Source: Candidatus Latescibacterota bacterium
GTDB lineage: Bacteria; Latescibacterota; UBA2968; GCA-2709665
Direction of reading: 5' to 3'
Assembly: GCA_965205485.1 (NCBI GenBank)
Contig: OZ242180.1
Span: forward strand, 640,001-704,000
DNA length: 64,000 nucleotides
Position 1 is the first letter of the stretch. The number at the start of each line of letters is the position of its first letter. This document shows, one piece after another, positions 6,700 through 11,568 of the stretch. Below the pieces are notes generated by a model. The model ran no database searches and was not told the DNA's origin. It saw nothing but the letters and a program-made list of their open reading frames with translations. Both the position numbers and the translations under genes were made by a program.

Positions 6700-7158
6700 T
6701 CAGCGAAACGTGCCCTCCGCAATATCCGATTCACCGACGAATTGCTTGAGATGTGCTATAGCCCTCGCCAGATCGCTCCTCACCCACGGATCTCTCTCCG
6801 TCCGCATCGCGAGTTCAAGGACGGCAATGGCTTCGGGCTGTTCGATATGCATGATTGCGACGGCGGCCTGCTGGCGTAACCGGCGGCTGCCGTCTCTGAG
6901 GAACGGCACCAGATCGGGAAGCGCTTCGCCGGCGCCCAGCATGCCCAGCGCCCAGACAGCCTTGGCCCGCACTTCCGGAACCGTGTCTCGCAGTGCCTGT
7001 CGCAGATGGGGAACCGCACCGGGTATGCGGTGCGCACCCAGATAAACAGCAGCATCCTCGCGTTCTCGCGGCGTTCCGGCTCTGAGCCGCGTAAAGTGAT
7101 CGCTGCCGCCCCCGCACGCCGGCAAACCGAGCAACAATATGAGGATTACGCCACGCAT
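6700..7158 (-). CDS. HEAT-repeat lipoprotein
   Basis: Lipobox LPAC; repeats such as [10 protein letters not shown] and LRQQAAVAI; overlaps the hemL stop. Confidence 0.75.
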
Positions 7159-8435
7159 TCTTTCAGGGCCGTGTATTGCGCTTTAACCGTTCGGTCTATA
7201 TCCTCGTCGGTATGCGCCAGCGAGACAAACGTGGCTTCGAACTGGGAGGGCGCCAGATACACGCCCTGCTCCAGCATCCGACGGAAGTAACGCGCGAAGG
7301 CGTCCTGGTCGCACGCCACGGCGGCTTCGTATCGTGTCACCGCGCGGTCCGTAAAAAACAGCGTCATCATCGACCCGACCCGGTTAAGGCGAAAGGGCAA
7401 TCCGAGCGACTTCAGGTTTTCCCGGAAACCGGCTTCAAGCGCGACTGACTTACCCTCGAGCGCCTCATAGGCGCCCGGTTCACGGAGTTGCCGGAGCGTC
7501 TCGTAACCGGCCGTCATCGCGAGAGGATTTCCCGACAGCGTCCCGGCCTGCGATACCCCTCTGCCCAGCGGCGAAATGTGGGACATGATCTCGCGCCGGC
7601 CGCCGAACGCGCCCACCGGCAGGCCCCCGCCGATGATCTTCCCGAGCGTGGTCAGATCCGGCGTAATCCCGTACAAACCCTGGGCGCCGCCCGGATGAAT
7701 GCGGAAACCCGTAATCACCTCGTCGAAAATCAGCACGATGCGAGACTCGACAGTGAGTTCCCGCAGCCCCTGCAGGAACCCCTCCGCCGGCGGAATCACC
7801 CCCATGTTTCCGGCAACCGGCTCTACGATGATCGCCGCGATCTCGTCCGGGTTCTCCGCCACGATCCGCTCGACCGCCTCAATGTCATTGAAGGGCGCCG
7901 TGACGGTACCCGACGCCGTTCCGGCGGTCACGCCGGGGCTGCTGGGCACTCCCGTGGTCAGCGCCGACGACCCCGCCTGAATCAGGAAGCTGTCCGCGTG
8001 CCCGTGCCAGCAGCCTTCGAACTTGATCACCTTCTCCCGTCCCGTATACCCCCTGGCCAGGCGTACCGCGGACATCGTGGCCTCCGTGCCCGAGTTCACC
8101 ATGCGCACCATATCCACGCCGGGCACGAGTTTGGTGACAAGCCCGGCCATTGCCACCTCGATTTCCGTGGGCGCGCCGAAACTCGTTCCATGTTCGCAGA
8201 CCTTCCTGATCGCCTCGACGACGACAGGCGGCGCATGGCCGAGAATCAGCGGGCCCCACGAGCAGACATAGTCGATATATTCCCGCTCGTCCGCATCGAA
8301 AACCTTCGATCCGCGTCCTCGCGTCACAAAAAGCGGCTGGCCGCCCACCGGGCCGAACGCCCGCGCCGGGCTGTTCACACCGCCGGGAATCACCCGCTGC
8401 GCCGCTTCGAACAACGCTGCCGAACGGTTTCCCAA
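7146..8435 (-). CDS. hemL: Glutamate-1-semialdehyde 2,1-aminomutase
   Basis: [53 protein letters not shown]. Confidence 0.97.
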
Positions 8436-8495
8436 GTAACACCCCCGTCTTTATGTCGGCTGCCGGATCATTCCTTGTTCCACACCAGCCCTTAA

Positions 8496-8594
8496 CAGCC
8501 CGTTGAAGAAGTCCATCCGGGCTGCGGCCGCCTCTTGCGGCCGAAATACTGCGTTGCGCGCCCTCGCCTGCAGAGCGACTTTCTCAACGGACTG
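8496..8594. mobile_element. MITE family A, copy 2 (99 bp, inverted, TTAA on both sides)
   Basis: CAGCCCGTTGA...TCAACGGACTG flanked by TTAA at 8492-8495 and 8595-8598; reverse complement of the other copies with an internal deletion. Confidence 0.8.
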
Positions 8595-8641
8595 TTAATT
8601 TTCAGATTTTGACCGCCAATGTCAAGTGGCGATTTTTGGGC

Positions 8642-8669
8642 TTGCGACGCGGCCCGCGCGACGTATATT
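8642..8669 (+). promoter_or_regulatory. Putative sigma70 promoter for the tRNA-like gene
   Basis: TTGCGA-16 bp-TATATT ending 14 bp before the tRNA-like 5' end. Confidence 0.5.
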
Positions 8670-8683
8670 TCGACGTCATTTTC

Positions 8684-8749
8684 GCGGCAGCAGCTCAGCA
8701 TCCGGCTTTGGACCGGACGGTAGGGGTTCGAGTCCTCTCTGCCGCACCA
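8684..8749 (+). tRNA. Atypical 66-nt tRNA-like gene, anticodon TTG (Gln), D-loop missing
   Basis: Acceptor GCGGCAG/CTGCCGC + A + CCA; anticodon stem TCCGG/CCGGA, loop CTTTGGA; T-arm AGGGG-TTCGAGT-CCTCT; only 10 nt (CAGCTCAGCA) between acceptor and anticodon stems. Confidence 0.8.
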
Positions 8750-8756
8750 TCCGGAG

Positions 8757-8780
8757 CCCCGGTCATCCGACCGGGGTTTT
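8757..8780 (+). terminator. Intrinsic terminator after the tRNA-like gene
   Basis: CCCCGGTC-ATCC-GACCGGGG-TTTT. Confidence 0.7.
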
Positions 8781-8796
8781 GCCTCCCCGATCCGGC

Positions 8797-11568
8797 ATGC
8801 CACCCGCCAACGAAGCGATCCGCATTAGAGGCGCCCGCCAGCATAACCTGCGGGACCTCAATCTCGACATTCCCAAGAACCGGTTCGTGGTCATCACGGG
8901 ACCGTCCGGCTCAGGGAAATCCTCGCTTGCATTCGACACCATCTACGCCGAAGGACAACGCAGGTACGTCGAGGCGATGTCCGCCCACGCGCGACGGTTC
9001 CTGGAGGTGATGGAACGACCGGACGTGGACAGCATCGACGGCCTTTCTCCCGCAGTCGCGATTCAGCAGCGCCGTGCCTCGGGAAGCGCCAGGTCCACGG
9101 TCGGGACCCTTACGGAAATCCACGACCATCTGAGAATCCTGTTCGCGCGTGCCGGTCGGCCGCATTGCCCGAACTGCGGCGAACTCCTTGCATCCCAGAC
9201 CGTGGGCGAGATTGTCGACGCCGTACTGGCCCTGCCCGACGGCGCGCGTCTTCGGATTCTGGCGCCACGGATTCGAGAACGAAAGGGTGGTTTCGATCAG
9301 GAACTGGAACGTCTTCGGCGAGACGGATACGTACGCGTGCGAATCGACGGAGACGAACGCGCCCTGGACGAAGAAATCCGCCTTGACCCAACGAAACCGC
9401 ACACGATCGAAGCGATTGTAGACCGCCTGGTCGTCCGCCAGAAGATTGAACGCCGGCTGGCCGACTCACTGGAAACCGCCCTTTCGCTTTCCGGTGGTAC
9501 GGTCGTCCTGGATATCCTCGAAGGCCGCGAGTTGCACTTTTCCACCCGGCTGATCTGCAGAAACTGCGACATCGGCTTTGTTGAACCGTCCCCTCGTCTG
9601 TTCTCGTTCAACGGTCCGCACGGCGCCTGTCCGGCCTGTAACGGAATGGGCGTGAGGACAGAAATCGACCCCGATACCGTCGTCCCGGACCCGCGCCGAT
9701 CCATCGCCGAGGGCGCCATTGCGCCCTGGGGCGTCCCCAAGGGCCGTGCGACCCTCGATCTGCTCAAACGGCTTTCGGAACGATTTCGTCTCGATCTCGC
9801 CGCGCCGTTCTCGTCCCTGCCGCCCGAAGCGAAGGAAGCCATTCTGTCGGGCGATCGCACTCTGGGCTACGAAGGCGTAATCCCTTCCCTGAAAAAAAGG
9901 CTTGCGGATGCCGGGTCGGACAACGCCGGATCGAGGCGGGACCCGTATGCCCGTACCGTCGACTGTTCCGACTGCGGCGGCGCCAGATTGAGAGCGGAGG
10001 CCCTCGCGGTCAGGATCGAGGGCATGAACATCGCGCAGGTCTCTGCCCTGAGCGTCGATGAAGCCATTGATTTCACGGATCGCCTGGAGGGCAGATTACA
10101 TCCTCGTGACGTCGTTGACCCCATCCTTCTCGAGATCCGCAACCGGCTGGTCTTCCTTAGGGAGGTGGGCGTGGGCTATCTCACCCTGGAACGAAACGTC
10201 GCCTCGCTCTCGGGCGGCGAAACACAGCGGATCCGCATGGCCACGCAGATCGGCGCCCGCCTGTCCGGAGTACTCTACGTTCTGGACGAACCCAGTGTCG
10301 GGTTGCACCCCCGGGACAATCGGAAGCTGATCCATACGCTCGAAACGCTCCGCAACCAGGGCAATACCGTTCTGGTGGTGGAGCACGATCGGGAAACCAT
10401 GCTGGCCGCGGACCATCTGATCGACCTCGGTCCGGGAGCGGGCGAGCAGGGCGGCGAACTGATGGCGGAAGGCGCGGCCCGGGATATCATGGCCGCAGGA
10501 GAATGCCTCACGGGCGCGTATCTGTCCGGACGGAAGACTATTCCTCCGCCTCCCGACAGACGGAAACCCACCGGCAGGATCGTATTAAAGGGCGCGAGAG
10601 GTCACAATCTCAAGTCCATCGACGTTTCCCTCCCGCTGGGCATTCTTGTGTGCGTCACCGGGGTTTCCGGGTCGGGCAAGAGCACGCTGATCAACGGGAC
10701 GCTTTACCCGGCACTGGCGAACATGCTGCACAACGCCTCCGCCGAACCTCTTCCGCACGACGGTATCGAGGGCCTGTCGCAAATCGACAAGATCATTCGT
10801 ATCGATCAGGCGCCCATCGGCCGCACGCCCAGGTCGAACCCGGCCACCTACACCGACCTCTTCTCGGACATCCGCGACCTCTACGCGCAGTTGCCGGAAT
10901 CCAGGGTTCGTGGCTATACACCCGGTCGTTTCAGTTTCAACCTCAAGGGCGGCCGCTGCGAGCCCTGCCAGGGCGACGGCCTCAGACGGATCGAAATGCA
11001 CTTCCTTCCCGACGTCTACGTGACCTGCGAGGCCTGCGGCGGCAGCCGGTACAACAGGGAAACCCTGGAAATCCGTTACAAGGGCTGCACGATCGCCGAC
11101 GTTCTGAATATGACGGCGGAGAGGGCGCTCACCTTTTTCAGGGACATACCGGGCGCAAGCCGGAAACTGAAGACGCTTTCGGAAGTCGGCCTGGGATACA
11201 TCCGTCTGGGCCAATCGGCAACCGCCCTCTCCGGAGGCGAGGCGCAACGCATAAAGCTGGCCGCCGAACTTTCCCGTGTGGCGACCGGAAAAACCATGTA
11301 TATTCTGGACGAACCCACAACCGGGCTGCACTTCGAGGACATCCGGTCGCTCATTGCCGTTCTCGACCGGCTGGTGGACAGGGGCAACTCCGTCGTTGTC
11401 ATCGAACACAACCTGGATGTGGTGAAACGGGCGGACTGGATTGTCGACCTCGGCCCCGACGGCGGCGATTCCGGCGGCCGGATTGTTGCCGAGGGTCACC
11501 CGGAACGCATCACCGCGGCGCCGGCCTCCCACACGGGCCGCTTTCTTAAAGAGGTGATCGAATCATGA
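8797..11568 (+). CDS. uvrA: Excinuclease ABC subunit A
   Basis: IRGARQHNL, GPSGSGKSSLAFDTIYAEGQRRY, zinc fingers, two ABC modules. Start moved to ATG 8797 because the ORF-track extension overlaps the tRNA-like gene. Confidence 0.97.
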   Translation: MPPANEAIRIRGARQHNLRDLNLDIPKNRFVVITGPSGSGKSSLAFDTIYAEGQRRYVEAMSAHARRFLEVMERPDVDSIDGLSPAVAIQQRRASGSARSTVGTLTEIHDHLRILFARAGRPHCPNCGELLASQTVGEIVDAVLALPDGARLRILAPRIRERKGGFDQELERLRRDGYVRVRIDGDERALDEEIRLDPTKPHTIEAIVDRLVVRQKIERRLADSLETALSLSGGTVVLDILEGRELHFSTRLICRNCDIGFVEPSPRLFSFNGPHGACPACNGMGVRTEIDPDTVVPDPRRSIAEGAIAPWGVPKGRATLDLLKRLSERFRLDLAAPFSSLPPEAKEAILSGDRTLGYEGVIPSLKKRLADAGSDNAGSRRDPYARTVDCSDCGGARLRAEALAVRIEGMNIAQVSALSVDEAIDFTDRLEGRLHPRDVVDPILLEIRNRLVFLREVGVGYLTLERNVASLSGGETQRIRMATQIGARLSGVLYVLDEPSVGLHPRDNRKLIHTLETLRNQGNTVLVVEHDRETMLAADHLIDLGPGAGEQGGELMAEGAARDIMAAGECLTGAYLSGRKTIPPPPDRRKPTGRIVLKGARGHNLKSIDVSLPLGILVCVTGVSGSGKSTLINGTLYPALANMLHNASAEPLPHDGIEGLSQIDKIIRIDQAPIGRTPRSNPATYTDLFSDIRDLYAQLPESRVRGYTPGRFSFNLKGGRCEPCQGDGLRRIEMHFLPDVYVTCEACGGSRYNRETLEIRYKGCTIADVLNMTAERALTFFRDIPGASRKLKTLSEVGLGYIRLGQSATALSGGEAQRIKLAAELSRVATGKTMYILDEPTTGLHFEDIRSLIAVLDRLVDRGNSVVVIEHNLDVVKRADWIVDLGPDGGDSGGRIVAEGHPERITAAPASHTGRFLKEVIES

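What the first reader, a model, noticed from the sequence alone, without database searches (positions are those of the whole stretch)
8642..8780. 66-nt D-loop-less tRNA-like gene with its own promoter and terminator, divergent from hemL
Seen: perfect 7-bp acceptor stem with encoded ACCA, perfect 5-bp anticodon stem with a UUG anticodon, and a canonical T-arm. Only 10 nt (CAGCTCAGCA) lie where about 19 nt are expected, as if a D-loop were deleted between AGC microhomologies, and position 8 is C rather than U. Established: bacterial tRNA-Gln normally has U1-A72, the GatCAB identity pair; this RNA has G1-C72 and A73. D-armless tRNAs are known mainly from animal mitochondria. Inference: intact stems and flanking signals suggest selection. 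One hypothesis is a non-ribosomal glutamyl carrier charged by a non-discriminating GluRS, for example for the C5 tetrapyrrole pathway whose hemL is adjacent. Alternatives are a decoy RNA or a recent pseudogene.
Basis: partly seen in the sequence, partly recalled or inferred. Interest (0 to 1): 0.8.

Follow-up and report, generated by a model that had tools for sequence, protein, structure and literature searches.

The report
Decaying spare arginine tRNA gene
This is a broken leftover of a spare arginine tRNA gene in a bacterium with sponge-dwelling relatives, probably cut at its D-arm by a small jumping element; it is not a new short glutamine or glutamate carrier.

Summary
The 66-nt element (8684-8749) is real and is not an assembly error. 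It is the positional orthologue of tRNA-Arg(UCG): 61 of 66 nt match the intact gene of a congener. The gene is full-length in 34 of 38 genomes of the order outside this genus. Within the genus, 12 of 15 genomes lack the D-loop, 2 are intact, and 1 carries a 163-nt MITE exactly at the shared left breakpoint. Two deleted alleles keep the MITE end at the junction. A 7-8 of 11 nt match between MITE end and tRNA predicts the commonest deletion size, 10 nt. UUG comes from one C35U change, seen in 1 of 12 deleted alleles. The genome has TadA, tRNA-Arg(ACG) and (CCG), normal tRNA-Gln and tRNA-Glu, and GlnRS, so the gene is redundant and a non-discriminating GluRS is not needed. Eight of 12 deleted alleles have broken stems; covariation is no better than shuffles. 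The conserved promoter probably serves uvrA and hemL. Verdict: pseudogene of a redundant tRNA. A residual structural role in a few slowly changing lineages, including this one, is not excluded.

The parts
8684..8749 (+). Relic of tRNA-Arg(UCG): D-loop (positions 15-23) deleted, U8C, U29C, C35U, A41G, one variable-loop base lost, G49A
8695..8698 (+). TCA target (8695-8697) and deletion junction (8697/8698); the site where a MITE sits in relative G008
8708..8710 (+). UUG anticodon, from UCG by one change at 8709; found in 1 of 12 deleted alleles
8642..8669 (+). Sigma-70-like promoter; the only + strand promoter-like site found in 8400-8900, upstream of both the relic and uvrA
   Evidence: 0 parsimony changes in the 25-nt core and 8-nt -10 box over 11 genomes
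8598..8625 (-). Divergent promoter-like site facing hemL, back to back with the + promoter
8757..8780 (+). Terminator-like 8-bp hairpin with a four-T tail; the tail is interrupted in several relatives
8797..11568 (+). uvrA, starting 47 nt after the CCA end
   Evidence: NF001503 1335 bits, cut-off 1147
7146..8435 (-). hemL, glutamate-1-semialdehyde aminomutase
   Evidence: TIGR00713 611.5 bits, cut-off 527.3
8493..8598 (.). A second, unrelated dispersed repeat between hemL and its promoter; absent here in two related contigs
   Evidence: 81 hits of 60 nt or more among 163 in G000; joints in X5 and X6

Best explanation
A pseudogene of tRNA-Arg(UCG). Shown: the hemL-tRNA-Arg(UCG)-uvrA order is ancestral in the order. 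The genome also has tRNA-Arg(ACG), TadA and tRNA-Arg(CCG), the usual two-tRNA set for CGN codons, so the UCG reader is spare. The relic has lost both main Arg identity elements (A20 deleted, C35 changed). Shown in relatives: a MITE with a TNA target preference has entered this gene at the TCA of the D-stem, and two deleted alleles keep a MITE end at the junction. Inferred: the MITE was removed by slippage between its end and a similar 11-nt stretch of the tRNA, taking the D-loop with it (net -10 nt). This probably happened several times, recently. Inferred, about even odds: this genome's allele arose that way; it carries no MITE letters itself. Inferred: the promoter stays because uvrA and hemL depend on it. 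The RNA is probably still transcribed as part of the uvrA leader, is not charged, and is decaying.
For: Orthology. Redundancy: Arg(ACG) in 14 of 15 genus genomes (the whole locus is missing from the 20-contig G001 assembly), with 1 variant base among the 14; TadA 160 bits against cut-off 150 in G000; PF14437 hits at E below 1e-34 in 15 of 15. PMC3711424 (abstract, passages) and PMC6063277 (passages) give ICG plus CCG as the usual set, with non-target tRNAs mostly absent where inosine is made. Decay: 19 of 238 stem cells unpaired, in 8 of 12 deleted alleles; T-loop U55 changed in 2; covariation reached by 47 of 500 shuffles. Six branches change at the neutral rate, 37 observed against 36.6 expected; 11 other internal branches show 4 against 37.1. 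MITE: insertion with TCA duplication in G008; 93 paired copies in G000, 49 with an identical 3-nt duplication; junction of G009 has 5 mismatches to the tRNA and 1 to a common MITE end (simulated chance 0.0015), G007 5 and 2 (0.012); best match of either end gives net -10, the size in 8 of 12 alleles.
Against: Overall the relic changes at only half the base-matched four-fold rate (46 against 92 steps). G000, G006, G003 and G001 keep all 17 pairs. G000 and G006 differ at 1 of 66 sites (Fisher p 0.097 against nearby uvrA sites), G003 and intact G011 at 3 of 66 (p 0.045). C29-G41 appears in three separate parts of the tree and C8 in several; G003's allele is nearly that of the G000 clade although its flanks and neighbouring genes group with intact G011. 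The branch counts use delayed-change parsimony, which favours tips. The gene is kept in 34 of 38 genomes outside the genus, nearly all of which also show TadA-like and Arg(ACG) matches, so it is not useless there, and CGA is still 12% of CGN codons in G000. The -9 and -11 alleles are not explained by the 11-nt match. No autonomous transposase with the MITE's ends was found.
Confidence: 0.8

Rival explanations
1. The D-loop-less relic has a residual or new non-decoding role, kept by selection in some lineages: for example an RNase P-cleavable top half that processes or stabilises the uvrA message, or an uncharged decoy RNA.
For: Top half (31 sites) changes at 0.44 of the neutral rate and the anticodon loop, 3' stem and variable loop at 0.40, while positions 8-14 change at 0.96. 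CCA is invariant in 14 of 14. Pair-keeping changes occur (A7-U66, G49A, G51A, U65C, C29-G41). Four alleles keep all stems.
Against: Acceptor stem broken in G004, G010, G014; T-stem in G002, G010, G012, G014; T-loop in G002, G004, G005. Covariation is not above shuffles. Recent separate knock-outs give the same slow average. G008 carries a 163-nt insert in this place.
Confidence: 0.14
2. A D-armless tRNA that still decodes on the ribosome (CGA in UCG alleles, CAA here).
For: UCG is kept in 10 of 12 deleted alleles; ARAGORN calls the G001 allele a tRNA; D-armless tRNAs work in animal mitochondria (PMC7609411, passages).
Against: A20, the main bacterial Arg determinant (PMC9976931, passages), is deleted in all 12. 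This allele also lacks C35. It lacks U1-A72, G2-C71 and G73 of the Gln set. A normal tRNA-Gln(UUG) is present. Two anticodon changes among 11 clade members are not clearly fewer than about 4.7 expected from the base-matched rates.
Confidence: 0.03
3. One reading: a non-ribosomal glutamyl carrier for the C5 tetrapyrrole pathway, charged by a non-discriminating GluRS.
For: G1-C72, A73, U34-U35 and a 4-nt variable loop are shared with this genome's tRNA-Glu(UUC). hemA is present and hemL is adjacent.
Against: UUG is in 1 of 12 alleles; the closest relative has the same body with UCG. GlnRS is present, 438 bits against cut-off 425.8, with a single GluRS. Glu identity includes tertiary interactions and C36 (PMC9976931 Table 1), and the D-stem is gone. 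Two normal tRNA-Glu genes exist. That glutamyl-tRNA reductase reads the tRNA core is recalled; one search listed no paper on it. hemL adjacency is ancestral to the Arg gene.
Confidence: 0.02
4. Assembly or sequencing error.
For: None found.
Against: Contigs of 4 of 4 runs show no insertion at the D-loop; X4 matches 8568-9100 with 0 differences, and the main X1 contig has T at 8709. Eleven other genomes have the same lesion.
Confidence: 0.005

Closest known systems
Bacterial tRNA-Arg(UCG), a 'non-target' isoacceptor made redundant by TadA-edited tRNA-Arg(ICG)
   Same: Direct orthologue, 61 of 66 nt identical; same place, promoter and CCA. Absence of such tRNAs where inosine is made is described (PMC6063277, PMC3711424; passages).
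   Different: Caught while being lost: D-loop gone, A20 and C35 gone, with intact, MITE-interrupted and deleted alleles in one genus.
Prokaryotic tRNA gene fragments and pseudogenes (PMC9897764; abstract and outline seen)
   Same: Scores as tRNA in a covariance model but lacks canonical parts; linked to a mobile element.
   Different: Both ends and the flanking signals are kept; the lesion is internal, not a 3' fragment left by an integrating element.
Bacterial MITEs (PMC11602168; passages)
   Same: The element in G008 is 163 nt with terminal inverted repeats (14 of 15 matching) and a 3-nt target duplication, and has 93 paired copies in G000.
   Different: No transposase partner found; a TNA target suggests an IS5-type mover (recalled, not tested). 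Its end happens to resemble the tRNA, which fixes the deletion size.
D-armless animal mitochondrial tRNA-Ser (PMC7609411; passages)
   Same: Acceptor, anticodon and T arms without a D arm.
   Different: Those are fixed, conserved and charged. This one is polymorphic within a genus and broken in 8 of 12 alleles.

Membership tests
tRNA-Arg(UCG), by descent | Sequence and positional orthology to intact tRNA-Arg(UCG) | tested here: met
   61 of 66 identity; same hemL-uvrA interval
Functional bacterial tRNA-Arg | A20 in the D-loop | tested here: not met
   Deleted; determinant per PMC9976931
Functional bacterial tRNA-Arg | C35 and U/G36 | tested here: not met
   U35 at 8709; G36 kept
Functional bacterial tRNA | U8, D-stem and G18-G19 for the tertiary core | tested here: not met
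   C8; D-loop and 3' D-stem largely missing
Bacterial tRNA-Gln | U1-A72, G2-C71, G73 with a YUG anticodon | tested here: not met
   Only the anticodon fits; G1-C72, C2-G71, A73; 40-45 of 66 identity to the genome's tRNA-Gln genes
Substrate of a non-discriminating GluRS or of HemA | Genome without GlnRS; tRNA core intact | tested here: not met
   GlnRS above cut-off; D-stem absent
Substrate of a non-discriminating GluRS or of HemA | Glutamylation in vitro | not testable with these tools
   Needs biochemistry
tRNA pseudogene | Inactivating lesion plus a redundant decoder | tested here: met
tRNA pseudogene | Neutral-rate decay | tested here: inconclusive
   Neutral on six branches, slower on eight tips including G000
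tRNA pseudogene | No mature charged RNA | not testable with these tools
   No RNA holder listed
Conserved structured ncRNA | Covariation beyond controls | tested here: not met
   47 to 248 of 500 shuffles reach the observed values
MITE (element in G008) | Short, terminal inverted repeats, target duplication, many copies | tested here: met
MITE (element in G008) | Autonomous partner with the same ends | tested here: inconclusive
   None among 3 spans of 0.5-3 kb in G000 or 26 IS1182 loci

The most novel reading that the evidence does not exclude
A MITE whose end mimics part of the tRNA repeatedly converts a spare tRNA-Arg into the same D-armless RNA. In some lineages, including this one, selection then keeps it and convergently strengthens it (C8, C29-G41, A49-U65) as a processing element of the uvrA leader or as an uncharged decoy. 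That would be a bacterial D-armless tRNA-like RNA caught at its origin.
Probability: 0.12. Interest if true: 0.65.

Novelty: new member of a known kind. Interest (0 to 1): 0.3.

Why it matters
As a pseudogene it is ordinary, and it warns against reading an isotype from one genome's anticodon. The allele series is the useful part: intact, MITE-interrupted, MITE-scarred and plainly deleted copies of one spare tRNA within one genus. It shows the steps by which a TadA-covered tRNA-Arg(UCG) is lost, which earlier work inferred from presence and absence. It also offers a testable reason why separate losses look alike. Seven literature searches listed no paper on this locus or on MITE-scarred D-loop deletions; the library lacks most subscription journals.

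Tried and rejected
ARAGORN at a low threshold and in mitochondrial mode gave only noise. Thermodynamic folding is uninformative: the three-stem fold is not the minimum for the relic, but the intact orthologue and tRNA-Arg(ACG) also miss the cloverleaf. AGC-AGC slippage was rejected, as it would remove 15 nt. A Vsr or methylation mutation bias as the cause of the recurrent T-to-C and A-to-G changes found no support: no Vsr or C5 methyltransferase match in G000, Vsr in 7 of 15 genus genomes, and no telling k-mer bias. CGA avoidance was not found: 10-13% of CGN in the deleted genomes against 14-15% in the two intact congeners, on 6-10 genes. IS1182 as the MITE's mover: no matching ends. The metagenome scan gave 1 locus, identical over the printed stretch to a known allele. 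No RNA holder was listed; this says nothing on expression. The junction comparison took wrong start points for several rows and one search was off by one base; both are replaced. Earlier-finding look-ups returned nothing. How widely the MITE occurs outside G000, G007, G008 and G009 was not counted and stays open. No supplements were read.

Full report
Observation. The element is at 8684-8749 (+). It has a 7-bp acceptor stem, A73 and CCA, a 10-nt linker with C8, a 5-bp anticodon stem, a UUG anticodon (8708-8710), a 4-nt variable loop and a T-arm with one G.U pair. Rfam scores it 47.3 bits as tRNA; ARAGORN misses it. It is the second-lowest of 46 Rfam tRNA matches in the genome. Promoter-like sites face both ways. 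The downstream hairpin has only four T. hemL and uvrA flank it, with uvrA starting 47 nt after the CCA. Contigs of four runs from three studies show no insertion at the D-loop. X4 matches 8568-9100 exactly and the main X1 contig has UUG, while X5 and X6 have the deletion with UCG. X1 or X4 may be the source of the window.

Identity. Genomes matching a promoter pattern are titled Candidatus Latescibacterota in 10 of 14 records (3 Gemmatimonadota, 1 uncultured). Related sequence occurs in sponge metagenomes (X5 and X6, laid). In relatives the same interval holds an ordinary tRNA-Arg(UCG). A match of 72-77 nt at 91% identity or more is found in 34 of 38 genomes of the order outside the genus; the four misses are 82-91% complete. 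The window's element matches the intact gene of congener G013 at 61 of 66 nt, against 49 for the best tRNA in its own genome (Arg ACG) and 39-45 for the Gln and Glu tRNAs. Its changes are U8C, loss of positions 15-23, U29C, C35U, A41G, one variable-loop base and G49A. G1-C72 and A73 are inherited. Among 15 genus genomes, 12 lack the D-loop (8 by 10 nt, 3 by 11, 1 by 9), 2 are intact and 1 is interrupted. UCG stands in 10 of the 12, ACG in one and UUG only here.

Redundancy. G000 has normal tRNA-Gln(UUG) and (CUG), two tRNA-Glu, tRNA-Arg ACG, CCG, CCU and UCU, and no other Arg(UCG). TadA passes its NCBIfam cut-off. tRNA-Arg(ACG) is found in 14 of 15 genus genomes with one variant base; its locus is missing from the G001 assembly. 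PMC3711424 (abstract and passages) and PMC10454642 (passages) give ICG plus CCG as the usual readers of CGN. PMC6063277 (passages) reports non-target tRNAs absent in most species that make inosine. The relic has lost A20 and C35, the main Arg determinants, and lacks U1-A72, G2-C71 and G73 of the Gln set (PMC9976931, Table 1 and passages). The genome has GlnRS, one GluRS, gatB and hemA, so it needs no non-discriminating GluRS.

How the D-loop was lost. In G008 a 163-nt element with terminal inverted repeats and a TCA duplication sits right after position 14, the left breakpoint of all deletions. G000 holds 93 paired copies; 49 have an identical 3-nt duplication, 45 of them of the TNA form, mostly in a C-TNA-R context that the D-stem matches. 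Five copies lie within 300 nt of a tRNA gene against 0.5 under a uniform model, which is not corrected for intergenic bias. The element's ends match tRNA positions 24-34 at 7 and 8 of 11 nt; this is the best match downstream, and recombining there gives net -10 nt at any crossover. The junctions of G009 and G007 differ from the tRNA at 5 of 11 nt but from a common element end at 1 and 2; random substitution gives this in 0.15% and 1.2% of trials. The other ten junctions, G000's included, show no clear element trace. An insertion into an already deleted allele would leave the same scars, so the route is shown for the site and inferred for this allele.

Selection. In trees of hemL and uvrA, deleted G003 is sister to intact G011, interrupted G008 is sister to intact G013, and the other 11 form a clade in the uvrA and joined trees. 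That gives at least three events, unless an allele moved between lineages. Of 238 stem cells 19 are unpaired, in 8 of 12 deleted alleles, and no covariation measure beats shuffles. Outside the junction the 11-clade shows 46 changes against 92 expected at four-fold rates. By branch, 11 internal branches carry 4 changes against 37.1 expected; five tips and the G010/G014 stem carry 37 against 36.6; eight tips, G000 among them, are slower, including G008, which is certainly disrupted. This fits a gene that worked until recently and was knocked out several times, though the parsimony rule favours tips. Against nearby uvrA sites, 1 of 8 pairs reaches p below 0.05. Unexplained: C29-G41 and C8 recur in separate lineages, and G003 differs from G006 at 1 of 59 sites where four-fold sites differ at 41%. 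Short-tract transfer, convergent selection or a mutation bias could do this; a Vsr-type bias found no support.

Flanking signals. The promoter boxes show no change over 11 genomes, while spacer and leader change freely. No other + strand promoter-like site was found before uvrA, and the hairpin's T tail is interrupted in several relatives. I infer that the promoter is kept for uvrA and hemL, not for the relic.

Verdict. This is a pseudogene of a redundant tRNA-Arg(UCG) (0.8), with a MITE-linked lesion shown in relatives. A residual non-decoding role remains possible (about 0.14). It is a new member of a known kind, interest 0.3. Also seen: PMC7609411 (passages), PMC9897764 (abstract and outline), PMC11602168 (passages). 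No supplements were read.

Noticed in passing
window 8493-8598: A second dispersed repeat between hemL and its promoter (81 hits of 60 nt or more in G000); present or absent among close relatives.
   Followed up: partly
G000 genome-wide; type copy L010:3111-3273: MITE family with 93 paired copies and a TNA target; 5 lie within 300 nt of tRNA genes; no autonomous partner found; also in G007 and G009.
   Followed up: partly
L039:1555-1620 (G003): The deleted allele is nearly that of the G000 clade, but its flanks and neighbouring genes group with intact G011: possible short-tract transfer between species, or convergence.
   Followed up: partly
L044:1541-1607 (G009): The relic's anticodon reads ACG because the MITE end supplies that base; another misleading isotype.
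   Followed up: yes
window 8781-8796: No purine-rich ribosome-binding site is apparent before the uvrA ATG; a C-rich stretch there is well kept across the genus.
   Followed up: no
L143 (G037), L144 (G049): Full-length tRNA-Arg(UCG) genes in other genera with single stem mismatches; possibly early decay.
   Followed up: no
G000:C1:3228602-3228699: A tRNA-Sec gene is present.
   Followed up: no
G000 genome-wide: CTAG is strongly under-represented (0.23 of expected) though no Vsr or C5 methyltransferase match was found in this genome.
   Followed up: no
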